From NCBI GenBank assembly GCA_965235115.1, contig OZ249436.1, forward strand, positions 5,396,001 through 5,460,000: 64,000 nucleotides of DNA, in the 5' to 3' direction. Below, piece after piece: positions 7,682 to 51,136 of the stretch. The DNA comes from Laetmonice hystrix. Lineage: Eukaryota. The notes under the pieces are model-generated. The model saw nothing but the letters and a program-made list of their open reading frames with translations, was not told where the DNA came from and made no database searches. The position numbers were made by a program, and so were the translations under genes. How positions within the stretch are numbered: the stretch's first letter is position 1; the number at the start of each line of letters is the position of its first letter.

Positions 7682-7822
7682 TTAGTTATTGGCCGAGTAT
7701 CTCTGTAGGAGGTAGACATGACAACTGTCACACACCCGGACGGGTTTGGCTGAGGAGGGCAGTGGCATCTTGTTATCGGAACATTCGTTACAGAATATAT
7801 CTCCACAGTTACGGCAGTGGTG
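7682..7822 (-). CDS. RUFY2: RUFY terminal coding exon 16 ([46 protein letters not shown])
   Basis: tgacag| acceptor, HHCR/CxxC/RVCxxC FYVE motifs, TAA stop. Confidence 0.96.
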
Positions 7823-10800
7823 CTGTCAACGAGAGAAGAGGATAAACTTAGCAGTTTTAAATAATAACAATATTACAAAGTAACATTATCAAAGTAACCC
7901 AGTTTGTTACCCAAAAAAAAGGAATTCTCCATTTAATTCATATCGCCCATAAATTACAAAAACCATGCATTATTGCAAATATTCTTCATCTCTAATAAAA
8001 TCAAGATTTGGAGAAAGAAGTTAAAGATTAGAAAGAAAAACAATTACTCTACAATTTCTCTCAAGATCCCGTCTAATATATAAAATGCCACACAAACCTT
8101 CCTACGAGATACTGAGAAGGCCTTGCTGCACTGTCGACAGTTGGCGATCTCCTTGTCATCGGCCCAGCTCGCCTCCTTCAGGACCATCTGGGCTTCCTTC
8201 ATATCCTCCACCTTCAACTTGGAGCTGAAATAAACATCAACACGGTCAATGACAATATCAGACAAATGGTGTTCTCTTCAAACAAAAGACAACACCGTGA
8301 CCCACGTGCACGACGACAGCTTTCAATAAACACAAGACAATACTTGGTACAATCAGCGATGCTCCGTTACACTGCCTTGACTTTACTCACACCTCAGTAG
8401 CGGATTGCCACCTGACTGACGACCATCTCAGGTGAGTGAGTCAGGTAAGAATCCGTCACATGTTGAGTTATTACCTGGTAACTTTACTTGTACAAGACAA
8501 TACTTGGTACAATCAACGATGTTCCGTTACACTGCCTAGACTTTACTCACACCTCAGTAGCGGATTGCCACCTGACTGACGACCATCTCAGGTGAGTGAG
8601 TCAGGTAAGAACCCGTCACATGTTGAGTTATTACCTGTTAACTTTACTTGTACAAGACAATACTTGGTACAATCAGCGCTGCTCCGTTACACTGCCTAGA
8701 CTTTACTCACACCTCAGTAGCGGATTGCCACCTGACTGACGACCATCTCAGGTGAGTGAGTCAGGTAAGAATCCGTCACATGTTGAGTTATTACCTGTTA
8801 ACTTTAATTGAGAGCCAAGTTTACATTATTACGACATGGAGCATGTTTAATTTCCTCTTCCCGTTGGTTTAGTGATTATACATGGTGATATGCGATGAAC
8901 ACGGTGAATAATTGAAAATCATCCATTAAAAGACAATCTATAACTCGGGTTCAACAGGTGCCCGGTGTAATCAATTGATCAGGTGCCATTCATCAGGGCC
9001 CTAACAGTGCTTCCACTCACTCACATCAACCGTACGGCACGAAATAAAGATGGAAAGAAAAATAGCAAGGAAGAGAAGAGAATACAAAAAAGAAGGAAGG
9101 AAGGACAAAAATGAAATAAAATGAAGAAAGAAAGGGAACGAAAGAAAGAGAAAGAAAGAGAGAAAAGCAAAAAGAGATAGGAGAATGAAAGAAAGAAGGA
9201 AGGAGAGACAGAGACAGCGAAATGAAGAATGAATGAATCTTGATCCCATAGGGCTGGATAGTCTCGTGTCCTGGATATGCAAATGACGTAACTGACGAGA
9301 CTATCCTCTGTTTGTCCCCATTCTCGCTCTTTCTCGCATGTTTGCCTATCTAGGACACGAGAACTGGCCAGCCCTATACAAGGTCGTTGTTCCGATGACT
9401 TACTCGCTGAGATGAGACCCAAGTTCTGACAGCGCTATCTCTTGTTCTTCACAAGTCTTATTGAGATGGTGATGTCGTGCTTGTAAATTGTTGTACTCCT
9501 GAAACAGGTTTGTGCAACAGGTAAAGGGCATATACAAACATAGTAATGAAATGTAAAAAAAACTACCCGAAAAATGACAACTCTTGATTTAATTTTCTCC
9601 CTGAGGGACACTTTACTGTTTTCCAATTTAATGTAATAGTGCTTCAAAGGGCTTATGATATATACATATGTAAAAGTCCTTCCTTCATAAGAAGATAAAT
9701 CATTAAATAATATGTTATGCTTTACGTAAAAACAGAAAAAAATCCCAACATGTCAGTATTTTAATAGATACCGGTACTTTCTATAACATTGAAACTTACC
9801 TTTCTGAGCTCAGAATAATTTTGCAGCTCATTGTGTAGCTGTGCTACCTTTTGCTTTTCCTGTTCAAGACTTCGTTGCAGGGTCCCTCGCCATTCCCTTT
9901 CGATCTTGAGGTCAGTCTCAAGAGCAGACCTGAAAAAAGAATGAAGAAGGTGGCAAAACTGATAAAAAGTTAAGTTATATTTCTTTAAAATGTTCAACGT
10001 AGTTTCTTTTCCATGTATGAAATTTACAAAACCTGACAAATGTAACTTAAAATAGTACACAATTCAACAGTTGGAAGTACCGGGGGTATTTATAATGCGA
10101 AAACACAAATACACCCACAATAACAGCCACCCATCGTTACGTTTCCCCTCGCAATCACTTCACCACCATCCTGAAGACTTCATACACTTGACTATAATCG
10201 TAAACTTTGTAAACCCAACAGATTTAGAAACAAAAAATTATTATTGTCAAAGAGCATACTAACTGAATTATTTAGGAGTACAAGTAGCCAGTTATCATCC
10301 GTACAAATAAACTTGGAGGACATCTGGTGCCATGCTCAAAGTATTTTATTGGCTGATAAGAAGTTATACCCTGTGACATAACCAAATTATGTGCTCTCTG
10401 TTATAGTCACAATTTTAATTCTTAGCAGTTGAGACTTTTCATGAACTCAAGATTCCACGCCATCATTGTCCATCCAGCAACCTTTTATAGTCTCCTTCAC
10501 ATAATCCGACCACGGTGAATCTCGTCGATACCAGTACAATGTACGAATAACATTTCCTACCATCTCCTGCAAAACCAGCAACGTCTACTTTCTTTTATAT
10601 GGAGGTCTTTAAGTGCTACATTGTAAGGTCGGGGCTCCTACAGTCCCCATCTGCGTAGATTACTTTAATATTCAGACAATCTCTTGGATTATGTAAGGCC
10701 TACAGCCTCTCAAAATAATATCCCTGTTTTGTAGCGCAAGCGACATCGGCATGCTGTGTGTGATTACACAGGAATCAACTGGAGTATACTGAATGTTTCA

Positions 10801-13800
10801 GTAGAATTACAAAGATACGATCTACCTTTGAACTCTGTGTTATATATTTATAATCCTGAATGTACCTTCTATGATAAATGATATCCGAACATTTGTCATT
10901 CTGGCCGTGAAGGATCCCTGCCTCCTAACATGTCCTCCAGAGTCTCCTGAGACTTGCCAACCTGCCTCCTAACATGTCCTCCAGAGTCTCCTGAGACTTG
11001 CCAACCTGCCTCCTAACATGTCCTCCAGAGTCTCCTGAGACTTGTCTCACCTATATTGACAATATTTCCTTGTTACGGTTAATTGCGTTTGTTGGTTACT
11101 TTCAATTAACGTCTCAAATTTGCCATTCCAGCATGCACCAATATTGTGACATTTTCATATAACGATACACAAGATAGTGACATCGGAAATACCTTGTACC
11201 ATATACTGGGATTATTTACCTTTTAATATAATATACAGAACCAATTCACAACTGCAGAAACACAGGTACGGTAAATGAGATGGATATCACACACTACATG
11301 CTTTACAGGCATGACAAATTACAATAAGCAGGTTATCACAACTAGACTTTCGATGACGTCAGCCAAACGGATCACACAGTAATATTTCATCAACGTGAAG
11401 TTGACATTTTTCTTCATTTTTCCACTGCAAAGCTTGTCAGTATAATTTACTTCATGTGACTATGTGTGTCATGTGTCTGTATGTGTATGTACCTGCATTT
11501 AATCTAATGTGAATACATATAGGCTTCCTCCAAACAACTTTTATGGTATCATACTTTGCATATTCTTACACAAAAATGGTATCCGTAGGTGTGTTACCAC
11601 CATACCACTGCCCGTATCCACATTATCAACGTAAAGTAACCACTGATTCATGCAGGACATGTCACAATGTAGTCCATACGATTTTAATTAGCCGCTCATC
11701 ATTAACAGATTTCGTAATTGACCTCCATTTCACGGTTTGACCTTGCCCAGTCCGGGTGATTGTGTTGCTTGTATAGCAACCCACCCACGCACAGAGTCGG
11801 ACACATCTGTCAAAGGTCCCGTCACGGGTAAGCTAGCCCTCTGCTACGTCACCTAAAAATAGTCTCCCAATCATCTCTCTAAATCTGCTCTCGTTGGGCG
11901 GGAGGGTGTGTATATGGTTTGAAGAAGGGGACATGTCAGGTAAGATTCATGTCGAGCTCTGGCGCTGGCGTTGTGAGGACGTCTGCATACATGTCCTTAT
12001 ATCAGGACGTCCTTCATGGCACTGAGGGTCCTCTATACAACCAATCACTCCTTCATCCTCTTCTACCTCTCTGACCAGCAGGGATTACTGTGGAAACATA
12101 TGCCAACCCCAACAAATTGGTTCTCATGATAATGGTTACCCATGAATTACAGACTGCACTGGTTCATCCCATTCAGTCGTGCTGGATGACCGGGGACACT
12201 CCAACATCATATGACGGAAAGCCAGCTCGTCTAGGGGGTGGAGGGGGTGAGGGGGGTAGAGGGCGTGGAGGGGGTGGTGGGGGTGGGGGTAGAGTGTGTG
12301 TGTGTGGGGGGGGGGCTTATCGGACCGACTTTTTGTGCCCTTCCTTCCTCCAAGCATCGCATACCACATAACATTAAATCATTGATAAATATTTTATTTC
12401 TTGTTACAAAGATGGCATCATTTGACATGTTTCATGTCTGACCTTCCCCCTGGCGGCTGAAGTCTGTAAAGGACTCAAGTGTTCACTCAGAATATCCCAC
12501 CGGCCTCTCAACTATTGGGCTGAGGACCCTGTCCTCCGTCTGCAGACAAGGAGGGGGTGTGGGTGTGGGTGGGGTGGAGTAGGGTCGGGGTTGGGGGTGG
12601 GTGGAGCAGGGTCGGGAGTCCGGCCCTGAACCATCAACCGGCCGGCTTGTCCTGTGAGAGGGTCCGCTATGTCAGCAACCTCTCCACCAGACATTTCGGA
12701 GCATTCCAGTTCACAAATCTAATTATGAACTCTATAAACATGTTTGCTTGTACTTCGTACGTGTTATTTGAGTTACCCTATTCGACCTTTTAAGTGTAAA
12801 ACCATATTGATAACAGGGCCGTAAATTTGACGGGAATTTGGCCACGGCGAATGCCAAAGGCGTGAATCGTTCATGTGCCGGGGGTCTGGGAGGCCTCCTC
12901 CACCAGAAAATCTTTGCAATACAATTTTTTTGGGGTGGAAATTTAACCGAAACAGCTGCATCGGCTGCCGCAATGCAATTTCCGGCCCTGGATAAACGTA
13001 CACCCCCAGTGGATGGAATCAGAAAAACTTGTGTTTCTTACAGTAAGACTTGTGTTTCTTATAGTAGGAACAACCAATAGTTTTTTTTTTCAGCCACCGG
13101 TTGTACGTTCTGGCCTACATTAACGTCTTCCTGTTTTAGACCTATGTTAGCAAGGTGCCCCGACTGTTCCTTTACCCTGAGAAATTAACTGGGGCGTACG
13201 CCTAATATGAGAACCTTCCGAATTTTCCTTGTAATTCCCAAAAAGATTCGAGTGTATTGTATGCTTAAACGGTCAAATAAACGGTCAAATACGGTACATA
13301 CAACGTCTGAGCGTGTGGCAAACTTGGAGTCACAATATCCGACCCCATAATTAGGTAACATTTGGAACACCTCCACACAATTGTTATATAATTTGCTGGG
13401 GCTTTATGATCAAAATACCTCTGAAGGTGGGTTTCCATAGGAGTTCACGCTTCACGTGTCACGGCTCACGTTTCACGCGTGAACAGAAGAATATACAAGT
13501 CATTTTCAAAGTGCAGGTTCCATAGGCGTTCACGGTTCACTCTTCACCCTCATGTCACGAGTCACGCGTGAATGAACGCGCTTGCTCGTTTTCTCTGACG
13601 TGAAACGTCAACGTCAACTTGGTGACCTTGGTGACCTTGGTGGAAACCGTCAAGAAAGTGACCGTGAAACGTGAAAACGTGACCTCTATGGAAACCCAGC
13701 CTAAAAGTCTTCCTCCGTCACAGGCCAGTCATTCAGTGTCCTGGCGGAATATACCGACACTGTATAGACAATCACACCTGTATACATTATGAGTTAATAT

Positions 13801-16800
13801 GACTTTGGTCAGTGATACCATTTGATCATGGCGATATATGAACATCAAAGCTATCACCCGAACCCTAGGGATATGTACGACACGCCTCAGTGCCCCTCAA
13901 AGAGCCATTCAGCGTCCCACTAAAGTGGCAGCGGACTTCGCTACACCTTTAGTCTGTCAGAGTCGACTACCAGCGACACTTATAGAAAGTTTATAATTAG
14001 GTTAACTCTGCTGGGTTTGACGGCTGGGTGGCTCAGGATTCGTGTGACCGCCTCGTGACAGGGTACAGCCCAACTTTGATTTGGTCAAGACTTTCTGACT
14101 TGACCAGAAGTAGCATACAGTATGTATACCCTGTTGCAGTCACGCAAAATGTCGTGGTTCTGTGTGGCCAACGCGAATGCGGCAGGCCCTGTTCGTCAAA
14201 GTTTCTTATCATCATGTGCCGATAAAATATTTTCTGTACACTGGTTTCTTAGATACTAGTAATTCCAAAAATACTACCCTACATCAAACGCACATCGCTG
14301 TGTGATTTAGCACCATCACAGGCGTCAGAGAAATCAGAACGGTTGACACAAAGCGTCATCATATTTCAGAACCACTCAAAGATATTTGAGTCCGTTAGGT
14401 TTGTTTCCAGCAACAGTCCCATCATGTCATGGCTTTCACCTCTACAATACGCATTTAATCAGTAATACATCAACATCGACAAAATCTTGACATGTGAGAC
14501 TTTATAACGGAGTTCCTTTGGAGCTATCTGTAGTGTAGAGCAGGCACAGTTGACTCAGGCTTAACTCATTAGTACTAACAAAGGCATAATGTCCAACATC
14601 ACATATGAAGCTCTTAGTCCGGAAAGCACACACCTCCAAGTATGGCGACCTTTAGCTTGAACTTCAATCCACACAGCAAATCTCAGTTTCAAACCAAAAA
14701 TAATGAGCAAGCTGCACGACGCATGACAAATTTTCGGTGTCGGATGATACGATTCCAATATTTTCTTTGGTTAATAACAATTCTGCATTCACTGTTTGGT
14801 ATAATCGCATCCACCTAGCATCCACTTTCCGTAGACAGATGATGTCCCACTTTGCGCTCCTTCACACGGTCCAATGTGGTGCCAGCCGGGAGATGGAGAT
14901 GTTGTCAGGGCCTCAAAACGTCACCAAGGTGGCACATCACCTGTCCCGTCTACTCAACACATCTCAGGTGTCTTGTTTTGATACTCTGAAAAACGGTCAG
15001 ATAGACAAGCCGACCATAGGGACGGAACAAGGCATGGAGGAACATTCGGGACAAGTTCTGTGTGGACTGCACAGGCCAAAACATGAAACAACTGAGGTTT
15101 TTGATACGCCAAAACGTTCTGAGCAACTGAGACTTTTTCCAACTAATTTTATTATACATGGCTGGTTACATGTCCACACAGAAGATGCCCTCCCTGAGTG
15201 CCACTCTCCAGAACAATTACACCCCCGTTCTGTGTAACACCAGCAACACAAACAAAGCTTCATACTGAGTCTGTGCTGGAGGGGGTGCGTACGGTGATAA
15301 GCACAGCAGGCTGATGGGACTGAACATCTGACTGGGCTTACCTCTTGGCGTCTTTATCGGCAAGCTGTTGGCCGAGTTTGCGCGCAGTTTCTTCTGCCGC
15401 GGCTTTTTCTATGTGGCCTTGCTTAGCCCTGATCATTACAGATTTGCACATTTTGGTTGGTGGGTGCCGTGCAGCGACACATGCAAATTGGAAAAAAGAA
15501 AAAACAATGGACACAAATTAATATAAATATAGTCTAAGTCGCGTAGAGGCTTAAATCATATGGCAAATAATGAGAGCAGAGTTGGTGAAAAAGCCGCGGC
15601 AATGATGCACACCGGCCACACACAAAGCCAGTGGCTGAAGCTTAGGACTGTTGGTCTTGACAGTCCTTCTGTAAAAAAATCTTTTCCCGGAGAAAATCAA
15701 TCTAACAAAACAATGCTTAATGAAGACGACTCCAGGGCCCGGTTCACAAACAAAGCCAAGTCAATTTTAATTAACTTGAAATCCATTTTAACCAATCAGA
15801 TTCAAGTAAAATTGACTTCAAGTCAATTAAAATTGACTTGACTTTGTTTGGGAACCGGGCCCAGGAAACACTAAAATATGGATTTACCAAAATATGGATT
15901 TACCTGACTTTCTAAAAACGATTTTGACAAGGTCATACTCATAGCTTCTTTCCTTAACCTTTCTATGACATGGTCAACCATTTAAAATCGAGTGAAAAAA
16001 AGAAGAACATTTGTTAGAATGTTCTTATCGACTTCCTTCAGTATACAACCGAGAACAAATTTGGGAATGAATTAGCTTTGGTGACCATAAAGTTCAGCCA
16101 TAACTCGGTTAATCTCAAGGACTGAATGATTCCCTAAAAATTATCCTTTGATTAAAAAAAAGAAGTGGAAAGAAGGAAAATGGAAATAATACATTGTTAG
16201 AACTGTAATGATTTTCCGATAGATATATTTACTAAATGGGTTCTGCCTTGGTTCATGTCTCACCTTGACGTTAGCCCTTTGAACCCGTAACTAATTTTGA
16301 GCTATTTGGCTTAAGGTCATCCCCTCAGGGCCATGTCTCACTGCGCTCAGAATAATTTGGAAATTTGTGTTACTCTTTTAGGAATGACTTGTAGGCCATA
16401 GAGAGGTAAGCTTATGCCCCCTTTCCAATTTACGGGTTCTGGAACAATGGATTGTGACATGAGGGCCATGGGTCTGATCATATGGGCGTAGCTCGTGGTG
16501 TGACATTGGTGTTATCAGATGGGTGTAGTACCCTGTGTTGTGACATACGTGGGCCATGGGTCTGATCAGATGGGGGTAGTACCCTGTGTTGTGACATATG
16601 TAACGTGGGCCATGGGTCTGATCAGATGGGGGTAGTACCCTGTGATGTGACATACGTAACGTGGGCCATAGGTCTGATCAGATGGGGTAGTACCCTGTGT
16701 TGTGACATATGGGCCATGGGTCTGATCAGATGGGGTAGTACCCTGTGATGTGACATACGTAACGTGGGCCATAGGTCTGATCAGATGGGCGTAGTACCCT

Positions 16801-19381
16801 GTGTTGTGACATACGTGGGCCACGGGTCTGATCAGATGGGGGTAGTACCCTGTGTTGTGACATACGTAACGTGGGCCATAGGTCTGATCAGATGGGGGTA
16901 GTACCCTGTGTTGTGACATACGTGGGCCACGGGTCTGATCAGATGGGGGTAGTACCCTGTGTTGTGACATACGTAACGTGGGCCATAGGTCTGATCAGAT
17001 GGGGGTAGTACCCTGTGTTGTGACATACGTGGGCCACGGGTCTGATCACATGGGGGTAGTACCCTGTGTTGTGACATACGTGGGCCATGGGTCTGATCGG
17101 ATGGGGGTAGTACCCTGTGTTGTGACATATGGGCCATGGGTCTGATCAGATGGGCGTAGTACCCTGTGTTGTGACATACGTAACGTGGGCCATAGGTCTG
17201 ATCAGATGGGGTAGTACCCTGTGTTGTGACATATGTAACGTGGGCCATAGGTCTGATCAGATGGGGTAGTACCCTGTGTTGTGACATACGTAACGTGGGC
17301 CATAGGTCTGATCAGATGGGGTAGTACCCTGTGTTGTGACATACGTAACGTGGGCCATGGGTCTGATCAGATGGGTAGTACCCTGTGTTGTGACATATGT
17401 AACGTGGGCCATGGGTCTGATCAGATGGGGTAGTACCCTGTGTTGTGACATACGTAACGTGGGCCATAGGTCTGATCAGATGGGGTAGTACCCTGTGTTG
17501 TGAGATACGTAACGTGGGCCATGGGTCTGAACAGATGGGGTAGTACCTTGTGTTGTGACATACGTAACGTGGGCCATGGGCCGCGATCTGAACACCAGTC
17601 ACCAGCACAAACACAGCAAAGCCAACCTCAGGTACGCTTCACAACCTATGTTAGACATCGTTACAAGCTCAGCTACATGCTCAACTACTAGTAGTAATAG
17701 TTTTTGTTTAAACGCTTTGCTCCCGGGAAAGGGCGACTCCAACATATTGTCAAAAACGGAGAAGCTCTTTAGTAGATTACTAACACGGTTATGCCTAACA
17801 AGGGTTGTGAAATGTACCGACATAAAGAACACATCAAATGAACAACTTGAAAGCTCCCGTAATTCAAAACCACACTTACATCAGTTATGATTCAAATAAA
17901 GGCATAAAAAAACTTCTTAAGTCTCTAAATTAATGATATGTTAATTGGCAATTATATACCTTATTACAGAATGTTCATTGGTGGGTAGTAGTAATTACAG
18001 TGTGACCCACAGATCCATAGGCTACCGTTGATTAAGTCATTGTTAATAAGATAATAATATTGTTAAAAGGTTGACCTACTTTGCTTCCAAATCCTTGATA
18101 GTAGCTGCCATCTGATTGGTCTTCTCTTCAAGTTTTACTACCAGGTCAGTTTTATGCTTTAACGAACTTTCACAGGTCTGCAAAAAAGGGAGAGTATTAT
18201 GTGTATCGTTTTCTGTGAAATCTACAGACACTATGAGGGAAATGATGCACACCTATCATGTATGCGTGTGCACCCACGCCTGTGGGTGTGTGCGTAGGTG
18301 AGTAAAAATAAATTGGTAACAGGCATTTACGTCAACCTTTGTTGAGTGTACTTTGGTCCTTAGGGAAGACTCTAAACGAGTCCAAGATTACATCAAGCAC
18401 CTGCTTGCGACGTGAGCGTTTTCAACTTCCCATAGGGGACTCAATGAGACGGTATGGGATTGGTTGGGGCTGGGGGTGGGAGTGGGGGTGGGGTGGGGTG
18501 GGGTGGAGGTGGGGGTGGGGGTGGGGGTGGGGGTGGAGGTCGGGGTGGGGTGGGGTGGGGGTGGCGGTGGGGCAGGCGTTCAAGGGGCTCTTGCCTGAGG
18601 GAAGTGATGGCTGCCGCTGAGCGTCAGCAGCACCCACCCCAATGTCAAGTGTGGATCAATGTAAGAAACCTCTACGGACCTCTACGGACCTCTACGGACC
18701 TCTACCGTATATCTATGCTATATTATGATACACATGTATCTCCATTTTAATTGTCACCAAATTGATCCGTTCACGGTTGACTGCGGGTCCGACTGTGCGC
18801 CCCCGGGAAGTGGCGGTGGCCGAGTGGGCATGGGTGTCGATACCTTATGCTATGTGAATGGGTGCAGTAATCTTGGGGCCCGGGTTTGATTCCAGTAGAG
18901 GACTATATACAACTTTTCTCTTTCCGGACATTCACAAAGTGACTGGGTTACGCCTGATGCCCGTGCACAGTGCGGGTAGAGTCCTTCTGTCTCCCATAAT
19001 AAAAATTCCGACCCCGATCGTCGGAAACAACGTCATGTTTAATCATGAATCAAAGATGGGATCATTCTGCCGTTCCGTTGTCGTCACCACCCCGGCATTA
19101 AGATCGTCGTTACGAGTTTTCATTGGTTCAATCTTCCCACCACGTATACCAACATCTCCACAGGAGGATATCCGTCCCATTGTAATGACCAGTAATGACC
19201 AACAATAGTCTGTGTCAGTACTGGCTACTTAAGAGTGAAGGGACCTAGCTGCCACTCTGTCCGCTGCTGTTGGCTCAGCCTTTACAAGCCGGACAAGCCC
19301 GCTCTGGTCGGCACTCACAAACTTCCTAACTCTGGCCGGTACCAGATACCGACATACACACACCACTACCTCCATCAGCGC

Positions 19382-19437
<56 letters not shown>

Positions 19438-22400
19438 CCTGCAGTGACATCAGCGGCAGCGATTCCGAGGGAGTATCTTAGAGACACGCTGTCACAATAC
19501 ACTTACGACACAAGGCCAGGAGGGTCATCGGGACCGTTTAGGTGGGTTCTGTGTTATCATTTCTGCATTTTATCACTTTATTCCACCAAACAAATTCTGT
19601 TCCGATGTTTGAAGAGCTCCTCAGTTTGCGTAATCATTTCAAAAGTTGTGGAGAACTGACACAGGTAACAATTAAAAAAATCCGACATAGAGTTTGTTTT
19701 ATACCACATAAGACAGCGCCACACAATTTCCTTTCTCAGAGATTTTCATAAAGTCGGGGTTTCTTCCCACCTGAAAATGACTACATACTTCCAAAATCAC
19801 TTTAACTTTCTCTTCAATGCAGAAGCATTTTTAGGTCTAACTACCAACTTTTCCAGGTTGACAACAGCTCCTACTTCAACAAGAAATCTCCGACCCTCCC
19901 TGATTGAGACTGACCACTGTCCAGTTACTGACCACCAAACCATCGCCCAGCCATGCACATCGCCCTCAGCTGTCTGGGTCTACTCCTGGTCATTCTATTA
20001 TGTAGCTCGCAAGTCCCTGTCAGCACGGGCCAGGCATACCACTTCAGCCGGGGCTGGTCGGCCGGTAAGCGGGGCCCGGCTTTGCCTGCTCCGGTTCGTG
20101 CCCGGACTGTCCCGGCCTGGCGGCGGAGGGCGCCGTCCACGCCGTCACAGGGGCATAACCCGGCCAGGAAACACGTCGGGGAGCTACTGAACAACTACCT
20201 TGGCATGGTGAGACTGGCAGACACCTGTCACATACTACCGCAGGTACAGAGGATCATTACAGATCTAATAGAGGTCAGTTTCACTCTCACTCTTTTCTTT
20301 GCCTTTTTTTCCGCAGTTGGGGAGTGGCGGTGGCCTAGTGGGCATGGATGTCGACACCTTATGCTATGCGAATGGGTGCAGTAATCTTAGGGCCTGGGTT
20401 CGATTCCTGTAGAGGACTATACAACTTTTCTCTTTAGGGACATTGTCAAAGTAATTGGGTTACCCCTGATGCCCGTGCATTTCAAAAGAAAAATACAGAT
20501 CTAATAGAGGTCAGTTTCACTCTCACTCTTTTTTTCCGCAGTCGAAACGCAAAAATTGCACTTTGCCTGGTCCGTCAATAATACTGAAAATCAAAGTGAC
20601 ACAGATTTCATCACAATATACTCGACAAACCTGGCATGTAGCGGTATACCAAGTCTTTCTCACTCTTTAACTCTGTCATGGCCAGTGGGCAATGAATGGA
20701 AAGGGCATTAAGAACGATCAGCTTGTAGACGTATGGGTTAGCTTGAGACCCCAGGCATATACATCACGTTCTGCTGTTCCCTGTGTTGTGACATATGGGC
20801 CAGGGGTCTGATCAGATGGAGATAGTACCCTGTGTTTGAACCGGGGGCCATGGGTCTAATCAGATGGAGATAGTACCCTGTGTTTGAACCGGGGGCCATG
20901 GGTCTGATCAGATGGAGATAGTACCCTGTGTTTGAACCGGGGGCCAGGGGTCTGATCAGATGGAGATAGTACCCTGTGTTTGAACCGGGGGCCATGGGTC
21001 TAATCAGATGGAGATAGTACCCTGTGTTTGAACCGGGGGCCATGGGTCTGATCAGATGGAGATAGTACCCTGTGTTTGAACCGGGGGCCAGGGGTCTGAT
21101 CAGATGGAGATAGTACCCTGTGTTTGAACCGGGGGCCAGGGGTCTGATCAGATGGAGATAGTACCCTGTGTTGTGAACCGGGGGTCATGGGTCTGATCAG
21201 ATGGAGATAGTACCCTGTGTTGTGAACCGGGGGCCATGGGTCTGATCAGATGGAGATAGTACCCTGTGTTTGAACCGGGGGCCATGGGTCTGATCCTGGG
21301 TCTGATCACGTTCACGTTCTGCTGTTCCCTGTGTTGTGACATATGGGCCAGGGATCTGATCAGATGGGGGTAGTACCCTGTGTTTGAACCGGGGGCCATG
21401 GGTCTGATCAGATGGAGATAGTACCCTGTGTTGTGAACCGGGGGCCATGGGTCTGATCAGATGGAGATAGTACCTGTGTTTGAACCGGGGGCCATGGGTC
21501 TGATCCTGGGTCTGATCACGTTCACGTTCTGCTGTTCCAAGACATAGGCCTACAGGGTATATCGGGACAATCGGACTTATTCAAGACCATTGGAACCGGG
21601 GGGCTGTGCCCCACCCCCCTTTCACCTTTTTGACAGGAAAATGATAATGTCTCATTCTTGCTTTCTATGCGAAAGGCACCCCTTTCTCTCAGCCCCCCCC
21701 CCCCCCCCCCCAACGCGAACAGTAACATTTTCCGACATCACTTTGATATATTTGACTGATGTTTTGATTAGTGTAGGAAATTGTAGATGTGCTGCAGGAA
21801 ATTGTATATGTGGTACAGGAAATTGCAGATGAGACAAAGCCTGAAACTTTACCTTGAGAAGAGTTAATTTTCCCGTATTACTAGCTGGCTACGCGACGAT
21901 TAACACGTCAAACTGACATTGAATTTGACAATCGAGTTGTTCGTTATACTGTATTAAATGTACGCAGGACAGACAATCGGAACAAAATGACAACTACAGC
22001 AATTCAATCTTCTCTCCCTGATCCAAAAAATTGGTATTTAGAAAAAGGCAAAAGAATAAAATTAAACAATTATATGGCGGGCTTGTTTACGCCTGGCTAT
22101 GTCCCTTAAGTAATATACCAGAAGGCAGGAGGAGAGGCACCCCCCACCCCCACTCCCCATTCCCCCCACTCCCCATTCCCCCCTCAAAGACAGGCCTCCG
22201 TCAGAAGAAGAGGATTCTAGAACTAGTTAGAAATGTCCTACCTCCGCACGTTCTATCTCACTAAGCACGGCTCACGCCATGTGAAGCATCCTTTAACACT
22301 GAGACTGCGGCCGTGAGAGAGTTTTGGGTTACAATACTGCCCCCACACCTACCATCATCTACACTGAATGCTGACAGCACATTGTCGATAAACCTCACAT

Positions 22401-25400
22401 TGTTGTTTTTAGTTTTTATTTTGGTCAGAGAGCTTTGAAACCTTAGCCTGGAGTCTTGATAGAGAGGAGCGAATATTTAGATAGGATCTACTGAACGTAT
22501 CGACCACCACTCGGTAAAATGATTGAAGATTTTGGTACGACGGCCGGAAACTGGACTGTACGACTGTAGACTCTGGTGGATTTATTATGTTTCCTCCGTA
22601 TCCCACGCCTGGGATAGGTAAATTCTGAGACAGAGAAGTTTATATATATCTAACAATAGCAGCAATTATTTTTATTTAAACTTTTAGTGTTGGTCTAGTA
22701 TAGTTCTAATTAATATAGCATTAATGCAAAATTAAGCGTTAACAAGGGCATTTAATAAGATATGAAGAACCCTGTGTGAAATTAAGATAAGATATTTTAC
22801 ATTCAAGTTGCTCATTACATGGATTTTAACCATGTTTTCGCACTCTCACTCACGCATTTCATGACGACTCATTAGATCTGACCTAGTTTCTGGCATTAAC
22901 AAAGAGACAGCCACCTCGTAACGTGGGGAAATCACAACTGACCAATTCTCTGATCGCTAAAACAATGTGGCCGCTACGTGGGGGGGCGCTTTTCTTTTTC
23001 TTTTTTAATTTTTTTTATATTACTACGTGGTCCGTAAGGAGGCAAGTAGCCAGGATTTCTACTTGTTTTGTTTCTGCTCATGATGGAAGTCCCAGCCCTT
23101 GGGAACAAGCGCAGCTGAGCTTGCCGCAAGTCTGGGAGCATGCTTCTCCAGTTACATTGTGAAAATTAGACTTGTCTATCATACATCCTCTATAAAGTAG
23201 ACCTAGTCTAACTAGAATATTGGAGATCTTTGAAGGTTGTTTTGTCCGACACGTAGCTGGTTACATCACTGGCATTCTATGGTCCCATTCTTCGTCATGT
23301 TGCAGTTGATAATAGATATTATATATCTGTGCGATACTGTCATTCTGAAAGGTCATGTACTGAAAATGCCATTTACATGTACCTCCCATATTAATTAATG
23401 CCTGTGCTGCGTCTCCGCCCCCTCACTATCCTCTGCCCTTCATGTCGCTATCATCATGGCAGTCCAGATAACTTTCACCCGATTTATTATCTCATTCATC
23501 GTGTAACAGATGACAGATGTTATGAAAGTCGATAAAAGTTCCAATCCTAGAACTCGGCCTTTAAATCTGTCGGGATTCCGAGTGAACTTGGCCTTTAAAT
23601 CTGTCCTGATTCCGAGTCAGAGGTTCAGAGACTGCGATATACTTTATGACCCTGAACGAGGAGCAGGCGGTTTGGCCAGGCCGCCGCAGCAGTATAATAA
23701 TTTTCTTCGTTTATCTAATCAACCCGATTGGTTGTCAATCCACGTGTTGTTTGCCTAACTACCAGGTGATGTAACTGAACACACACCAGGTGGTGCTTCC
23801 ATCGATATGACCAATGAGCTTAGCGTTAATACTGCCTGAACGTGTCATCTACTACCTGGAGGGGATCCCGTATTGAGAGTATAGCTCTACTACCCACTCC
23901 ACCCACCACACACGCCTCACCGTCAATGTCGGCAATTTGCGACAGTGTTGAACATTCAAACTCTACCAATCATATAGAGTCTCGACTTTCTGCCTCCCCA
24001 CCTGTAAATTCCTCAGTTAGGCTGGGGTTTCAAAAGTAATACTACCCGATCGTAGAGGTGGCTTCGTTCAACCAAGAATAATCCAGAAGTTATGAGATGT
24101 AAAATTTTGCACAGAGGCTATGCGGCCCTCAAATGCATGATGCTGCTTCCCTACTTTCGTCGCAGAATACTTGATGTTGAGTGTGACCCTAGGAGGCCCT
24201 CTGAACGGTTAAGATTTGGAACTTGATGTGGTAATTGCCGCCCTTAGGGGATACGGGCCTCCACTGCCTCCACCATGATAACGTCACTGATCCACTGCCT
24301 CCACCATAACGTCACTGATCCACTGCCTCCACCATGATAACGTCACTGATCCACTGTCTCCACCATAACGTTACTGATCCACTGCCTCCACCATGATAAC
24401 TTTACTGATCCACTGCCTCCACCATAACGTCACTGATCCACTGCCTCCACCATGATAACGTCACTGATCCACTGTCTCCACCATAACGTTACTGATCCAC
24501 TGCCTCCACCATGATAACATTATTGATCCACTGCCTCCACCATGATAACGTCACTGATCCATTGCCTCCACCATGATAACGTCACTGATCCACTGCCTCC
24601 ACCATGATAACGTTATTGATCCACTGCCTCCACCATGATAACGTTACTGATCCAATGCCTCCACCATGATAACGTCACTGATCCATTGCCTCCACCATGA
24701 TAACGTTATTGATCCACTGCCTCCACCATGATAACGTCACTGATCCACTGCCTCCACCATGATAACGTTACTGATCCAATGCCTCCACCATGATAACGTC
24801 ACTGATCCACTGCCTCCACCATGATAACGTTACTGACCCACTGCCTCCACCATAATAGCGTTATTGATCCACTGCCTCCACCATAATAGCGTTATTGATC
24901 CACTGCCTCCACCATGATAACGTCACTGATCCACTGTCTCCACCATGATAACGTCACTGATCCACTGCCTCCACCATGATAACGTTACTGATCCACTGCC
25001 TCCACCATGATAACGTTACTGATCCACTGCCTCCACCATGATAACGTCACTGATCCACTGCCTCCACCATAACGTTACTGATCCACTGTCTCCACCATGA
25101 TAACGTTACTGATCCACTGCCTCCACCATGATAACGTTACTAATCCACTGCCTCCACCATGATAACGTCACTGATCCACTGCCTCCACCATGATAACGTT
25201 ACTGATCCACTGCCTCCACCATGATAACGTCACTGATCCACTGCCTCCACCATAACGTTACTGATCCACTGCCTCCACCATGATAATGTCACTGATCCAC
25301 TGCCTCCACCATGATAACGTCACTAATCCACTGCCTCCACCATAATAACGTTACTGATCCACTGCCTCCACCATGATATCGTTATTGATCCACTGCCTCC

Positions 25401-28400
25401 ACCATGATAACGTTACTAATCCACTGCCTCCACCATAACGTTACTGATCCACTGCCTCCACCATGATAGCGTTATTGATCCACTGCCTCCACCATTACAC
25501 TCCACAGCTGGAGCTCCTGAGGCTTCGGTCATGCCTGAGTGAACGAGCCACGGTCGCTGACAAACCCATCCTCCAACAAATTCAGCCCCTGGTGAGTAAA
25601 CACTTTCACAACTATAAAAAAGTTCTTTTTATTTATTTTTCTGTTTTTTAAAGTTTATGCATCTTTTGCAGTCTTAGCACTCGAAGACAATTCAGACATT
25701 GTCATTGTTTCCTATCATAGGCAATCAGGTATTCTTTCAAGGAAACAGAGGTTGGAGATGTACTATTTGAACGCTATTGAAAACATGATAGTCGACGCCT
25801 GGTGTTTATAACCCATGTACCCACCGTATGCCAAATCTGACGCCCACTTTACAATGCGTCATCTTCACTTACGTCACAAACGAAAAAATCATCAATTTTC
25901 TAATGGAAATGGCGGCTTTGCTTTTTTGCAACCAACTCCCTATCATCATTATTATCATTATCATCATCATCTGGCAACCACTACTGTTCCCCTGTCCTTC
26001 TCAGAGGACATGGAACAAACCGATGCACTTGAAACACAAACGTTGGGTATTTATAGTCAGGGTTATCGACTGCCGATACACACTTGCCACGCCCCGCCAT
26101 TATGCAAATGAGCCTGGTTATGCATGCACTTAAAATCAATCTAAATGCTGGTGACCACCAATTTAGCTGGGACAAAATGGTCTCCAAAAAGGCATTCATC
26201 TTATTTCTTACGATATTTTTAGACTGCAAACAACAATTATTATCTCTCTCTTGTTGGAACTTGTAATCCCGGGCATGTATAATCCTCATCATTTTCTTCA
26301 ACCCGACTGGAAAGGCATTAATAATTGAGAAGGAAGTATCCAAGATGAAGGATTAATCTCTGAACAACTTTGTATTGAAACCATAGCCTTGACCTACAGA
26401 AAATTCCACTACATCGAAAACACATCAAACTAAGCTGGAATTTCGTAATTACAAGGAAATAACAGCTCCATCTCCCACGCTGTTATCAAGTTTCAAGTTC
26501 TGGGGAATGGGGAAACACCGCTAGAAACAACTCAACAACCCACTGCTATATGGTCTGTCACGTGACGTTTCTTACCAGAAAAACACCTCAAGAACACCTC
26601 CGTTCTGTCGTCGTCTATGCGATTCTTTCTCCTTCGATTTAATATATCTCCTGATATACCAGTTAGCACACACATCGTAGTTGAAATAAAGATCTTACCA
26701 CCAATGATAGCCAAATGGAGGGTGGAGTCCCTGTCTTCAAATATGTAAATTGTGTCCCTGGTCGTTCTGCAATTAAGCTCTTCAGCTCCAGCGACCAGGG
26801 GGGATGTCTACATTGTTTGTAACAACCACGCCAGGCGTCGATTGTGTGTGACGTCAGGGAAGCCATGTTGTTGCCATTTAGTCGAAGTGACGAGGGCTGA
26901 GGCAGACTAACTCGGACTATTCAAACACATGAGTAAAGTCGAACCTCTAACCACCCTGGGGGTCAGCTCTGACCGCCTCGAACTCTACGAATTCTGCCTG
27001 CTGTATGTGATGAAAACGTATACGTTACTTGTACAGATACACACGGTTGTTTTATTCTCTGGTGCTTGGCGGTATGGCCTGGGTTTGTTCTCATAATGTT
27101 ACACAGACAGTAAAATAACAATGAGGCGGGTAACTGGCGGCGAAATGCCGGGCGGCCTACGTGAATGTGCCGACGTTTCGCCGTTGGTGGTGTTTCGAGG
27201 TTTGATGTCGCTGAGTCGCTGTCAAGAAGTGAGTGATTACTGCAGAGATCTAGTAGGACCATGATCTTTTTTGCTCTTTTTTTTAAATTACAAATCCTCG
27301 TGAATCTATACAATAGGTATCTGCATTTACATTGAGCTATGACATCAAGAAGCCAACAGAGCGACTTATTGTAATGACAAATGTATTTTAAGAATATAAG
27401 TATGTTCAGAAGTTGTATCTAGGCAGGAAAAATCCAGACATACACTTTACCGAGGTAATATATAAACATGTGTAATAAGAGAATATAATAGTATCGAAAA
27501 TAGTGGTCTTGGCATGTCGTATTCTCTAAAATAACATAACAGAGAAAAGTGCCTTATCCACTAAGCCGATTTTCCTTGCGACGTCCATGCGATTTTGACA
27601 TTAGCCTTTTATTTTACTGTTATTTTGAGATTAAAGGATGGAACCCATATCCTTAAAGAGGAAAGGCCAGCCAGGAAAAATTTCAGCATGAAATTCCACC
27701 ATTAAATCAAAAACCGCATGGCCGTCGCAAGGGAAATCGGCTTAGTGGATTATTTTCTCTCACAGTTTCTTATATTAAGTAACAATATTTCTATTAAATA
27801 GCCAAGAGATTCTAGCATAAAATGTCGTCATGATCGGTCAGTATGATTGGTATTCGGTATTTATATGGATCATCCTTGCCATCTAATATCGACTTTTTCA
27901 ATTATTTCCACAGCACCGACACCCTCACAGAGATGAAGACGAGATCTGATACGTGATGGCAGGGGCAGACATCAGGATTCACAAAGTCACCCTCCTCAGG
28001 AAGGTCATCGCGACAAACAACCGGATACTATACAGACCCAACCCACACACATACACCCCGAGCAAGGGGAGTTGATGTGGATATCACTGGAAGTGATTGA
28101 CAGAAAATCGTTTTCTAGACAGTTCCTTCCACCAACACCGCCATCCAACACCAAGCTCATCCCACTTCACGCACTGCTACTATTCGCTCATTCTACAGAT
28201 CTGAACATGTCAAACTACATTTGATTCGTCTTCAGCGTCCCCCGAAAATAGTGGTTCGTGTGAGAAGACCTAGTTTTAACACTCAGCACCGACGACCAGT
28301 CAAACTGACTGCTAAACTATTTGAAGAACTTTTAGTTCTACCCTAGGAACCAGATTTAGCCTTATTGCTGGTCCATGCTTAATCAACTCGGACGTTGCTA

Positions 28401-31400
28401 TGTCGTTTCATAGTGTCCCAGTCGATAATAGGGAATCATGCCCCAGTCCTGGTACAGCGAATACGACATGCCAAGACCACTCACTTGATTTACCAATCCA
28501 CAGCGAAAACTTTACTGTGCTAGCTTGGCTTGATTCCGTATTTAGATGTTCCAACAAATATTTGATTTTCACGCCGGTTCTATTTCATGATCAGCCAGGC
28601 TCCTTAAGCGAATTCTATAAACGTTAAGAACGAGCTTCTGATTGGTCAATCCTTAGCGTACATGTGACCTATCAGAGGGTTTGTTACGGAGCCACGCGTG
28701 CATTATTCTGTAAGACGACAATGGCCTGTGATATAAAGTTCATTCATTTGTAAAATTACATGTTTGAGCCTTTATTCCCCACTGTGCTATTTCCAATTAA
28801 AGACAGCAACGTAGTCTTCTCAGCCTTACTGACTACAATCCATTCAACTTTAATTACTTACCCTCACTAAAAGATCAATATCATTAAACAATCTGCATAC
28901 TGTGATGAAGATGTCTTCACTTTTCTGTTTAAAATCATACTGAGCCTCAAAGGCATTTCGATTTTAAAAACCGCGAGCGAGTGGACTGCTGGATAAATAG
29001 GGGCATTCCTCCAAAACCATAACGTTTTCCCTCCAGGGGCCAGTTGCATGACCGTTCGTTAATTTCCCCATGTAGGCCTATTTTCAATGAGAATTTTAAC
29101 GAACGGGCAGTCATGCAACTGGCCCCAGGTAACCTTTCTATGTATTTTGGAAATCATTTTGAGAGATACCAAAAATTGCGAAAGAAAAGAGAGCAGATGG
29201 AAGACATCTCTGCCTGGACCGTGCAAGTTATTTTGATATTTGGATATCAAGTATAGCAGATGGAAGATATAGAACTGCAAAGTTCTTCAGTGTTGTCATT
29301 TAAAGACTTTCTCAGCAAATTTATTTCCCTTTTTTTACAGCTTGATATCATTTCAATAAAATAAATATTCTTTATAAATTTTCATTTATTACCATTACGA
29401 CAATGCTAAAAAGGTGGCGAAAAGTTGGCGTAAATGAATTATTTGGCTTGCACTAGAGGCGAGTCCCCTCCTGGCGGCAGTGAGTTCTCTTTGCTCAACC
29501 AGCCAGAAAACATGCTCCCGTTTGCCACGAGCCCTAAATGCCGTGAGGGGCCGGCACCCACCGCTTATAGTACCGAGCTGCTAAATCCGGCTACTATCTA
29601 TAAATCATGGTCAGATCAATGGCTGTGTCAATTTATAGCATCCTGCAACTGTTAGGGATTGACGCCATACCGGGAAGACGGACCCACGTCAGGCCGGCAC
29701 TGGTATCCGCCAGGGAAGTCCTTGGCCGGCTGGCAGAAGTCCTCTACATATTGTCTCCAACAACAATAGCACAAACTCCTGTGGATGGGCTGACGGCGTC
29801 TGACAGGTGATAACCGATAATAAGATACCAGGTAGCGCTCTGTTTATTTCACAGAGCGACATTTATATATTCTTTCACTTGTCTCAAATTGTGTATGGTT
29901 TTCTTCTAAAAGGATGAACTATAAAAGTAGATGTGAGGTTCTTGCCGTAGATATCCAACAACAATCGTTGACACTTTATGAAAACTGCTTCAGGTCAGCC
30001 AGTATATGAGGGGAGGAAAAGCTAAAATGGAGACAGGAAAAGGATGAACTTCACTGAGACCAGGAAGATATGGTCACTTGAGATGTATAAATTGTTGCGA
30101 AGGTATCCAGCAATGGTTGTCTGTGTATTCGGCAAGGACTTCCCGCCAAGGATTGCACCTGCCTGGAAGAAGGCGTAGGTGTGAAGACGTCATTGTCCTC
30201 ATCCATTATTAACTAGGACAGTTTGTCGTGTCAATCAGTGACGTCCTCAGATGTCCGTTATTGTAGTTCCTGCTGCTGGTCCTGCTGTGCCTCCGACGGT
30301 GGACCGTCAAACGTTAATTATTTCTACCCTCTCCACTACGTCAGTACTCAGAACACCACCGGATTGTAATGTCAGAGATAAAGATTGTAATGTCAGAGAT
30401 AAAGATGGTAATGTCAGAGATAAAGATTGTAATGTCAGAGATAAAGATTGTAATCTCACAGATAAAGATTGTAATCTCACAGATAAATATTGTAATCTCA
30501 CAGATAAAGATTGTAATCTCACAGATAAAGATTGTAATGTCAGAGATAAAGATTGTAATGTCAGAGATAAAGATTGTAATGTCAAGATTGTAATCTCACA
30601 GATAAAGATTGTAATCTAACAGATAAAGATTGTATTCTCACAGATAAAGATTGTAATGTCAGAGATAAAGATTGTAATGTCAGAGATAAAGATTGTAATG
30701 TCAGAGATAAAGATTGTAATGTCAGAGATAAAGATTGTAATGTCAGAGATAAAGATTGTAATGTCAGAGATAAATATTGTAATCTCACAGATAAAGATTG
30801 TAATCTCACAGATAAATATTGTAATCTCACAGATAAAGATTGTAATCTCACAAATAAAGATTGTAATCTCACAGATAACGATTGTACCCCCGGTAATCTC
30901 ACAGATAAAGATTGTAATCTCACAGATAAAGATTGAAATCTCACAGATAAATATTGTAATCTCACAGATAAAGATTGTAATCTCACAAATAAAGATTGTA
31001 ATCTCACAGATATAGGTTGTAATCTCACAGATAAAGATTGTAATCTCACAGATACAGATTGTAATCTCACAGATAAAGATTGTAATCTCACAGATAAAGA
31101 TTTTAATCTCACAAATAAAGATTGTAATCTCACAGATAAAGATTGTAATCTCACAGATAAAGATTGTAATCTCACAGATAAAGATTGTAATCTAACAGAT
31201 AAAGATTGTATTCTCACATATAAAGATTGTAATGTCAGAGATAAAGATTGTAATGTCACAGATAAAGATTGTAATGTCAGAGATAAAGATTGTAATCTCA
31301 CAGATAAAGATTGTAATCTCACAGATAAATATTGTAATCTCACAGATAAAGATTGTAACAGCGCGAATCCACCAAGACATTTAGTCTTGCGACGTCCATG

Positions 31401-49366: not shown

Positions 49367-50850
49367 ACTTGGAGGTGTGTAACGTGAACGTTATGTCAAG
49401 CGCGCGACTGCAATATGTTGCAGGACTGTACGTTCGAACGTCAGTTTTGGTCTATATTTCACAATAAACTAAGATTATTCTCTTATCTTTTGCAGTTTTT
49501 GATGATGCTATATTTAATCAAACTGAATGACAAATTGAGAGAAAATGATCGCTCTACCTAAACGTAGTAGCCTAAATAAATAGGCCTAGCCACTAACTTA
49601 GAGTCTCAGACTCAGACAGTCTTGATCAGACTCAGACTCAGTGTCAGACAGTCAGAGTCAGACTCAGTCTCTGACAGAAACAGTACTTTTCACAAAATCA
49701 AAAATAGAAGACAAAATGAGATGCGAAGTTTCTCAAAAAAGAGATGTTTTATGGGTGCTGGGTGGGACTGGGACAGTCCAGACTCCGTCTCCAGTGCCAG
49801 TGGGAGTGCACTGCCACTGCCACTGGGTTCACTTGTCTTCAGTTCAGAATTAATTTAAAATCAGGTCCAGGGTGGCAGGTCTAGATCATCAACCCCCCCC
49901 CCCCCCCCCCCTCTTAAATAAAAATAAACCACTTTCCACCTTCTTTCGAATTGAATTTTATTAGTCTACTCCCTCCCCCTGTACTGTAGCAAAATCGGAT
50001 CCTCCACGACCACGTAGTTCCGACGATTAAAACCAGGTGCGACACAAACAGAAGCGCCACCTAGCGTAAACAGTCTAAACTAAGTAGTCGCAAAAGCCAA
50101 TCACAACCTGTTTTCGGTAGTAGCTGTAACCAAGGAAACGTTTATACTTTGAGAGAACACGTTGCCAATCCGGGTAACGTATCGGGATGCGTACCCCCTC
50201 AAAGTTTGGGCTATGTTTAGCCTACCTAGATATATTTTCTTGGGGGGAACTGATAAAGGGTAGGGCGATGTGAAATGAGTCTGTGTTTCAGAACTTCTTA
50301 TAAGAACCCGAACCCACCGACGCCGACGGTCAGCTGTTCAGTCGATCTCGATGCCTTTGCTTTGCCAGCTGGTCACCCGCGCTCCGCCTCCGGTCTCACT
50401 GAGTGAAAGTAAAACTGATTCGGAATCTGAGGCAGATTGGAAACTGGGCCACTGTATACAAATGTTGGCCATTTAAAGGAATCAGGTCGGGGTAGATTTA
50501 GGCATTATAACACTTAACAGCTAAGCTGAATGACGCCCAACAACTAACACTAACAGTAGCCTAACGAGACCGAGGCGAGAGAGCTGCTCGGGCCCCGGCC
50601 GGCCTTCGCCCGTGGACACTCGGCGCTGGTCGATTTACAACTGGTCGTGGCCGTGGGGCAGGGTAGTGACCGAATCACAAGAAGTGAGGGTGGACCTTTG
50701 GTCTCTCTCAGCCAACCGCTCTCTCAATCTGGATATCCTCGGAACGGTCAAACCTCAACCTCGACCTCGCAAGGTACGAATCCGTGTCAATGTCCAGCCT
50801 GTGTCTGGTGGCCTGAGTAACCCGAACACGGTCCAGAATCGTGTGGCAGA
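49367..50850. promoter_or_regulatory. RUFY 5' region / possible bidirectional promoter
   Basis: Lies between the RUFY 1a ATG (-) and a plus-strand candidate exon. Contains CCAAT motifs (~50097, ~50165) and a CTCF-like GCGCCACCTAGCG (50054-50066). Confidence 0.45.
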
Positions 50851-50851
50851 C

Positions 50852-51136
50852 ATGACGGCCATGGCAGCGGTAGTACCCTTGGCCGGGAGCCGGGGCCCAG
50901 GCGCCTGGCCGTCGGTACCGTACCGAGGTACGGGACAGGGGAAGGCGGCTACAACCATACTAGGTGACCAAGGAGATATCGTCACCGTTATTTCGGATGT
51001 TCCGTACACGGTGAGGGGGAGGAGGGGTGTGACCGACTCGGTTACCCCACCTGTCCGTGGGAGTCGACCCATGCATAGGTCCACTCTGACAGTGTGCACC
51101 CAGCCATACACCGACTACACGACAACCACGGACAAG
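50852..51136 (+). CDS. Candidate first coding exon of an unidentified gene divergent from RUFY (MTAMAAVVPLAGSRG...DYTTTTDK)
   Basis: GC/CpG-rich stretch, open frame, strong donor AAG|gtgagc at 51137. No recognisable domain. Confidence 0.4.

What the first reader, a model, noticed from the sequence alone, without database searches (positions are those of the whole stretch)
20031..20072. Mature peptide [17 protein letters not shown] is intermediate between spiralian 'GnRH' and arthropod corazonin
Seen: an 11-mer [11 protein letters not shown] followed by GKR. Established: annelid/mollusc peptides are of the type pQ(A/N)YHFS(N/H)GW..amide, and arthropod corazonin is the 11-mer pQTFQYSRGWTN-amide. 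This peptide has the spiralian QAYHF half with the corazonin SRGW core and the same length as corazonin. Inference: an informative variant supporting corazonin orthology, possibly an unreported isoform. Extra basic sites (RRR, RK) in the associated peptide could release further peptides.
Basis: partly seen in the sequence, partly recalled or inferred. Interest (0 to 1): 0.7.

Follow-up and report, generated by a model that had tools for sequence, protein, structure and literature searches.

The report
Worm corazonin gene nested inside RUFY
This is an ordinary worm corazonin hormone gene, and its arthropod-like arginine is a fast-changing position rather than an evolutionary missing link; the more useful point is that the gene lies backwards inside an intron of the RUFY gene, apparently the same intron as in other annelids, snails and bivalves.

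Summary
The peptide is real: [14 protein letters not shown] at 20031-20072 follows a 26-residue signal peptide in an annelid-type corazonin (formerly 'GnRH-like') precursor with two firm coding exons and a third inferred. It is not an intermediate. Eleven residues is the normal spiralian length (23 of 26 distinct peptides). It shares 8/11 residues with Platynereis CRZ1 and 5/11 with arthropod Arg7-corazonin. Position 7 varies among annelid-type peptides (N10, K5, R3, H2 of 20). Two other precursors carry QAYHFSRGW, and each Arg7 precursor's nearest relative has K, H or N there. Corazonin identity is already receptor-proven in Platynereis. The RRR/RK sites are absent from the closest homolog. 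The exact 11-mer was not found elsewhere. Unplanned result: the gene lies antisense in a 14.3-kb RUFY intron, and database records put the ortholog with RUFY in 11 of 11 informative annelid, gastropod and bivalve species; in Candidula it sits between RUFY halves split at the same junction. Four paper searches found no report. The scan had noted the nesting on this window only.

The parts
19542..19547 (+). possible splice donor of a non-coding first exon (start unknown)
   Evidence: sequence only; Platynereis crz1 has its first coding exon as exon 2; inferred, untested
19857..19952 (+). likely 5' untranslated part of the first coding exon, after a pyrimidine-rich AG
   Evidence: sequence only; inferred
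19953..20030 (+). signal peptide, 26 residues
   Evidence: aligned with 7 homologs
20031..20063 (+). mature peptide, predicted [17 protein letters not shown]
   Evidence: pyroglutamate and amide inferred from the family
20064..20072 (+). Gly amide donor and Lys-Arg cleavage site
20073..20273 (+). associated peptide, first part, with Cys92 and non-conserved RRR and RK; ends at a phase-0 GT donor 16 codons from the Cys
25508..25591 (+). second coding exon (28 codons) with the second conserved Cys
   Evidence: best of 414 open AG sites against 23 named precursors, score 9.2, next 4.2, mean -10.6, sd 5.1; GTGAGT donor
27914..27949 (+). probable last coding exon (11 codons and stop); precursor would be 146 residues
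   Evidence: acceptor and open frame only; no homology support; inferred
20258..20542 (+). high-copy SINE-like element (about 20319-20493) between two copies of the exon end and splice donor (copies start at 20258 and 20494)
32474..32641 (-). RUFY exon before the host intron
18178..32473 (-). RUFY host intron, 14.3 kb, GT..AG, phase 0; the largest of 14 mapped RUFY coding introns (others about 260-5,413 bp)
18080..18177 (-). RUFY exon after the host intron
   Evidence: contiguous with the previous exon in full-length homologs
7691..39365 (-). span of 15 mapped RUFY (RUN, coiled coil, FYVE) coding exons; 5' exons not mapped

Best explanation
The gene is the annelid ortholog of Platynereis crz1 and of the molluscan 'GnRH-like' (corazonin) genes. 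Inferred from the family: the precursor is secreted, cut after the signal peptide and at Lys-Arg, amidated and pyroglutamylated, giving one 11-residue peptide that activates the animal's corazonin-type GPCR and probably ties growth and maturation to energy state, as in Platynereis. Shown here: Arg7 is one state of a site that changes fast in annelids, so it says little about deep ancestry. Shown in the window, and supported by records for other species: the gene lies antisense in one RUFY intron, an arrangement shared by annelids, gastropods and bivalves. Inferred: it persists mainly because a rearrangement cannot separate the two genes without breaking RUFY.
For: All 66 hits to an annelid-type alignment carry QxYHFSxGW, and the named ones are annelid or mollusc GnRH/corazonin precursors or unnamed proteins of those animals. 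Two-Cys associated peptide and intron position match. Residue 7: N10 K5 R3 H2 in 20 QAY-type sequences, N in 54 of 54 others. With the peptide left out, nearest kin are P0001 (K) for the window, Capitella (H) for P0004, P0020 (N) for P0011; a single Arg7 clade is rejected, AU p 0.0018. Platynereis CRZ1 activates CrzR; the two GnRH/AKH-type receptors respond only to another ligand (PMC6969523).
Against: No transcript, peptide or receptor data for this animal. Pfam Corazonin scores 14.8 bits, under its cut-off of 25. The tree is mostly unresolved (14 of 21 inner branches open, long branches, bootstrap not settled), and non-monophyly of Arg7 does not exclude retention of an ancestral basic residue. 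Nesting elsewhere rests mostly on record metadata; strand and position were seen as DNA only in the window and, for the downstream exons, in L003. Four QAY-type Lys7 loci (L002, L006, L012, L024) showed no RUFY exon, in 5' flanks of 1.4-3.2 kb. The last exon is inferred.
Confidence: 0.85

Rival explanations
1. A basic residue 7 (Arg or Lys) is the ancestral protostome state, kept in this lineage, in arthropods, phoronids and Lingula, and replaced by Asn in molluscs and many annelids.
For: Arg or Lys in 8 of 20 annelid-type sequences; Lys in Lingula and 3 Phoronis species; Arg in leech and most arthropods, Lys in a centipede. The tree has no root and cannot tell gain from loss.
Against: Three close pairs differ at the site (R/K, R/H, R/N), so it changes quickly. 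Two other brachiopods have Asn and nemerteans Gln, His or Pro. Arthropod-type loci split 7 Arg to 8 His. Even if true, the peptide would be a retained state, not a link between phyla.
Confidence: 0.25
2. The precursor releases further bioactive peptides at RRR and RK.
For: The sites exist and could be cut by convertases (general knowledge).
Against: They align with non-basic residues in P0001, the closest homolog; basic pairs are scattered without a pattern across 67 homologs; no Gly precedes them.
Confidence: 0.1
3. The peptide is a GnRH/AKH/ACP-type ligand.
For: Superfamily resemblance; Pfam AKH 12.3 bits; ACPs have FSRxW; Andreatta et al. say ligand trees alone do not split the groups.
Against: Fails the AKH hallmarks of Li et al. 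2016 (length 8-10, FS at 4-5, W at 8); 8/11 identical to receptor-proven Platynereis CRZ1.
Confidence: 0.03
4. The nesting is kept by selection for shared regulation (common enhancers or antisense interference between corazonin and RUFY in neurons), not just by structural locking.
For: Same neighbour in annelids, gastropods and bivalves, and the same 5' orientation toward the downstream RUFY exon in the window and L003.
Against: No expression data. No RUFY exon near 15 arthropod-type loci, and L010 has other genes upstream. Amphioxus has vasotocin and NPS as nearest neighbours (PMC3969558). No conserved non-coding sequence was tested.
Confidence: 0.2

Closest known systems
Platynereis dumerilii CRZ1/GnRHL1 (Andreatta et al. 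2020, PMC6969523; P0017)
   Same: Signal peptide, single QAYHFSxGW 11-mer, GKR, two-Cys associated peptide; 8/11 identical
   Different: Arg7, Ser10, Ala11 in place of Asn, Met, Pro; receptor activity shown there, not here; its genomic neighbour was not checked
Capitella teleta 'GnRH' (ELU06546.1, P0010) and unnamed relative P0004
   Same: QAYHFS-x-GW; P0004 has the same Arg7; the Capitella gene is two accessions from RUFY on a 283-kb scaffold
   Different: C-terminal FP; Capitella has His7
Molluscan GnRH-like/corazonin precursors (Aplysia, Lymnaea, oysters, Mercenaria)
   Same: Same precursor layout; linked to RUFY in the 10 informative mollusc species
   Different: Residue 2 is N, S, H or M; residue 7 is Asn in 54 of 54 sampled
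Arthropod [Arg7]-corazonin (Pfam PF17308)
   Same: 11 residues; Q1, S6, R7, G8, W9 (5/11)
   Different: Six other residues; window precursor is under the Pfam cut-off; no RUFY exon seen near 15 arthropod-type loci
TIMP nested in synapsin introns (recalled, from no call)
   Same: A small secreted-protein gene kept antisense in a larger gene's intron across phyla
   Different: Unrelated genes; not checked here

Membership tests
Spiralian corazonin (formerly GnRH-like) precursor | Signal peptide directly followed by one peptide copy and Gly plus basic site | tested here: met
   (hydropathy only)
Spiralian corazonin (formerly GnRH-like) precursor | Q-x-Y-H-F-S-x-G-W-x-x, 11-12 residues | tested here: met
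Spiralian corazonin (formerly GnRH-like) precursor | Associated peptide with two Cys in the C..P..(Q/E)|xExxR...C pattern | tested here: met
Spiralian corazonin (formerly GnRH-like) precursor | Phase-0 intron 16 codons from the first Cys | tested here: met
   homolog predictions lose similarity at the same place. Li et al. say this organisation does not separate corazonin from AKH genes
Spiralian corazonin (formerly GnRH-like) precursor | Genomic position with RUFY as in annelid and mollusc orthologs (marker found here, not a published criterion) | tested here: met
Corazonin-type system | Two introns in the coding sequence, as in deuterostome CRZ genes (Tian et al. 2016) | tested here: inconclusive
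   second intron depends on an inferred last exon; positions not compared (figure not held)
Corazonin-type system | Activation of a corazonin-type receptor | not testable with these tools
   needs a receptor assay; shown for the Platynereis ortholog
Corazonin-type system | Expression and processing to the pyroglutamyl, amidated peptide | not testable with these tools
   needs RNA and peptidomics
Arthropod corazonin (PF17308) | Pfam gathering score 25; QTFxYSxGWTN pattern | tested here: not met
   14.8 bits; 5/11 identity; 6 arthropod-type loci scored 25.2-37.8
AKH/ACP/GnRH-type ligand | 8-10 residues, FS/FT/YS at 4-5, W at 8 (Li et al. 2016) | tested here: not met
   11 residues, FS at 5-6, W at 9; Pfam AKH 12.3 under 22.9

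The most novel reading that the evidence does not exclude
The corazonin gene has sat antisense in one and the same RUFY intron since the common ancestor of annelids and molluscs, perhaps all lophotrochozoans, and this has not been described. It would be a receptor-independent address that tells corazonin from GnRH/AKH genes and parent from daughter paralogs in any spiralian genome, and it explains why RUFY gene models break at this intron in several assemblies.
Probability: 0.6. Interest if true: 0.42.

Novelty: new member of a known kind. Interest (0 to 1): 0.27.

Why it matters
The peptide adds one more sequence to a well-catalogued family and does not change the corazonin versus GnRH question, which receptor assays have settled for annelids. 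The conserved position inside RUFY matters more. Naming of these short, fast-changing ligands has been confused for years, and a fixed genomic address would allow orthology calls without a receptor, help find divergent copies in leeches, earthworms or flatworms, and correct split RUFY annotations.

Tried and rejected
No whole genome is held, so paralogs and the receptor could not be sought. No RNA holder listed among 3 runs; no evidence either way on expression. The joint 20257-20494 in one contig of run X3 reads GT..AG, but intron depth is uniform, so the runs look like DNA; it is either an allele without the SINE or an assembly collapse over the 39-base repeat, and these cannot be told apart. 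ARAGORN found no tRNA. The metagenome contigs behind five loci could not be read further. 5 of 26 pattern hits (L004, L005, L014, L017, L025) lacked a signal-like leader and were dropped as chance before counting. Tree: 25 rows; 12 of 67 proteins failed the Cys-motif trim, among them QAY-type P0020 and P0050 and the named P0058; other non-QAY rows were left out by choice. Biomphalaria first looked like a mismatch (different contig lengths); cluster members showed consecutive accessions in three series, while the RefSeq RUFY record stays on a contig of another length. Lymnaea was uninformative (no contig for the precursor). Species with a precursor but no RUFY among the 120 of 603 listed hits were not counted. 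No structure-activity data on corazonin residue 7 were found in the passages read; mosquito ACP tolerates Arg-to-Ala with about 23-fold loss, which is only an analogy. One search scanned 148 of the 396 frames listed.

Full report
Observation. The stretch 20031-20072 on the + strand translates as [14 protein letters not shown]. It is in frame with ATG 19953 and a 26-residue hydrophobic leader. A degenerate corazonin-type pattern matches once in the window and in 0 of 100 shuffles. Contigs from 3 of 3 public runs of one sample show no difference across the exon; they may be the window's own source, so they check the assembly only.

Gene. The first coding exon ends at a phase-0 donor at 20273, 16 codons from Cys92. 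Genome-predicted homologs lose similarity at the same place. The next exon, 25508-25591, is the best of 414 open AG sites when scored against 23 named precursors (9.2; next 4.2) and carries the second conserved Cys. A last exon at 27914-27949 is inferred from its acceptor and frame only; the precursor would be 146 residues. The animal is probably an annelid: QAY-type peptide, and the best RUFY hit is Capitella (86%, next 82%). That margin is thin.

Is it intermediate? No. Of 26 distinct peptides from 67 homologs plus the window, 23 are 11-mers, so the length is ordinary; the query was annelid-type, so the sample leans spiralian. The peptide shares 10/11 residues with P0001 (Lys7), 9/11 with P0004 and P0011 (both Arg7), 8/11 with Platynereis, Capitella and Aplysia, and 5/11 with arthropod Arg7-corazonin. 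Platynereis and Capitella score 4/11 against the same arthropod peptide, so Arg7 is the whole difference. Capitella shares 6/11 with the arthropod-type QTFHYSHGWTN found in 8 loci. Residue 7 is N10, K5, R3, H2 among 20 QAY-type sequences and Asn in 54 of 54 others. With the peptide left out, each Arg7 precursor is closest to a non-Arg one: window to P0001 (143, next 62), P0004 to Capitella (174, next 59), P0011 to P0020 (175, next 88). A tree with the site masked rejects one Arg7 clade (AU p 0.0018), though it is mostly unresolved and cannot tell gain from loss. In print, leech has Arg7 (PMC5592718, table passage), and Lingula and three Phoronis species have Lys7 (PMC8557429, supplement part 10). 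ACPs of the GnRH/AKH branch also carry FSRxW or FSKGW.

Is the exact peptide catalogued? Not in what I could search: 0 papers for the 9-residue core; 0 for HFSRGW and HFSKGW among the 3 papers listed; 0 for YHFSRGW in the Thiel et al. supplement; none among 67 proteins or 26 loci; no look-alike in the scan. Subscription papers, figures and TSA were not searched.

Extra basic sites. RRR and RK align with non-basic residues in P0001, and basic pairs show no pattern across homologs. Further active peptides are unlikely.

Surroundings. A RUFY gene runs on the - strand, with 15 coding exons mapped from 39365 to 7691. The corazonin gene lies wholly within the intron 18178-32473, whose flanking exons are contiguous in full-length homologs. 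I noted this before seeing that the first-stage reader had too. Look-ups gave: Capitella ELU06546/06548; Bulinus KAH9494898/897; Candidula CAG5132021 (RUFY first part), 022 (precursor), 023 (RUFY second part); Bradybaena tags 05780/05781; Biomphalaria glabrata consecutive in three series; Saccostrea cucullata XP_062617136/138; S. echinata XP_061175010/012; Crassostrea virginica XP_078317648/651; Mercenaria XP_053392924/926. Aplysia and Ostrea share contig length, with accessions from different series. That is 11 of 11 informative species linked and 9 adjacent; that accessions follow genomic order is general knowledge, not checked per record. The Candidula halves end and begin exactly at the junction that holds the gene here. 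In 5 of 25 RUFY models examined the prediction stops at or just after this junction (Capitella, Ridgeia, Bulinus, Biomphalaria, Candidula). Locus L003, with a bivalve-type peptide, shows the precursor on the opposite strand with its 5' end about 5.2 kb from the same downstream RUFY exon; the contig ends before the upstream exon could appear.

Limits of the linkage. A RUFY profile from 75 proteins hit only L003 among 26 loci. For 15 arthropod-type loci the flanks held range from tens of bases to 10 kb; L010 has a fucosyltransferase and a forkhead gene upstream, which argues against the arrangement there. Four QAY-type Lys7 loci have flanks too short to decide. Roch et al. give vasotocin and NPS as nearest neighbours in amphioxus and do not mention RUFY in the main text (PMC3969558, passages; supplement not read). 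So the marker does not link spiralian to arthropod corazonin on present evidence. Four searches found no paper joining RUFY with corazonin or GnRH.

Mechanism. Shown: gene anatomy, family membership by sequence, nesting in this genome. Inferred: secretion, cleavage, amidation, action on a corazonin-type GPCR, and a role in growth and maturation like that of the Platynereis knockout. For the nesting, structural locking is the simplest cause; shared regulation is possible and untested.

Other papers seen: PMC4923880 one passage; PMC5024129 passages; PMC6838013 and PMC4971055 passages; the rest as search listings only.

Verdict. The peptide is a new member of a known family and alone would merit about 0.12. 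The apparently unreported, conserved nesting in RUFY raises overall interest to 0.27.

Noticed in passing
window 20258-20542: A SINE-like element with Pol III A- and B-box-like motifs (by eye) sits just inside the intron, read at a summed depth near 10^6 against about 50 for unique DNA. It is flanked by an unusually long duplication (about 50 bases, 39 exact) that copies the exon end and splice donor, creating a second possible donor at 20510.
   Followed up: partly
window 18805-18967: A second copy of the same element, 89% identical, also inside the RUFY host intron.
   Followed up: partly
window 19385-19436: A CAG repeat of about 17 units in the region of the possible non-coding first exon.
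   Followed up: no
window 16514-17580 and 20797-21505: Two tandem arrays (periods 55 and 48) that share a core sequence by eye, in neighbouring RUFY introns; tandem repeats mask 17,215 of 64,000 bases.
   Followed up: no
L001, L007, L008, L010, L011, L015, L021, L022: Eight arthropod-type loci encode QTFHYSHGWTN (His4, His7), which is closer to Capitella's peptide than the window's peptide is to either arthropod form.
   Followed up: partly
L002, L006, L012, L024: Four annelid-type precursors with Lys7 and long, acidic associated peptides; possibly one lineage or a second paralog.
   Followed up: partly
P0068, P0072, P0088, P0091, P0137: Public RUFY models of five annelid and snail species stop at the intron that holds the corazonin gene here; they are probably split annotations, not RUN-only isoforms.
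   Followed up: partly
window 50534-51253: A 240-codon open frame outside tandem repeats with no Pfam match.
   Followed up: no
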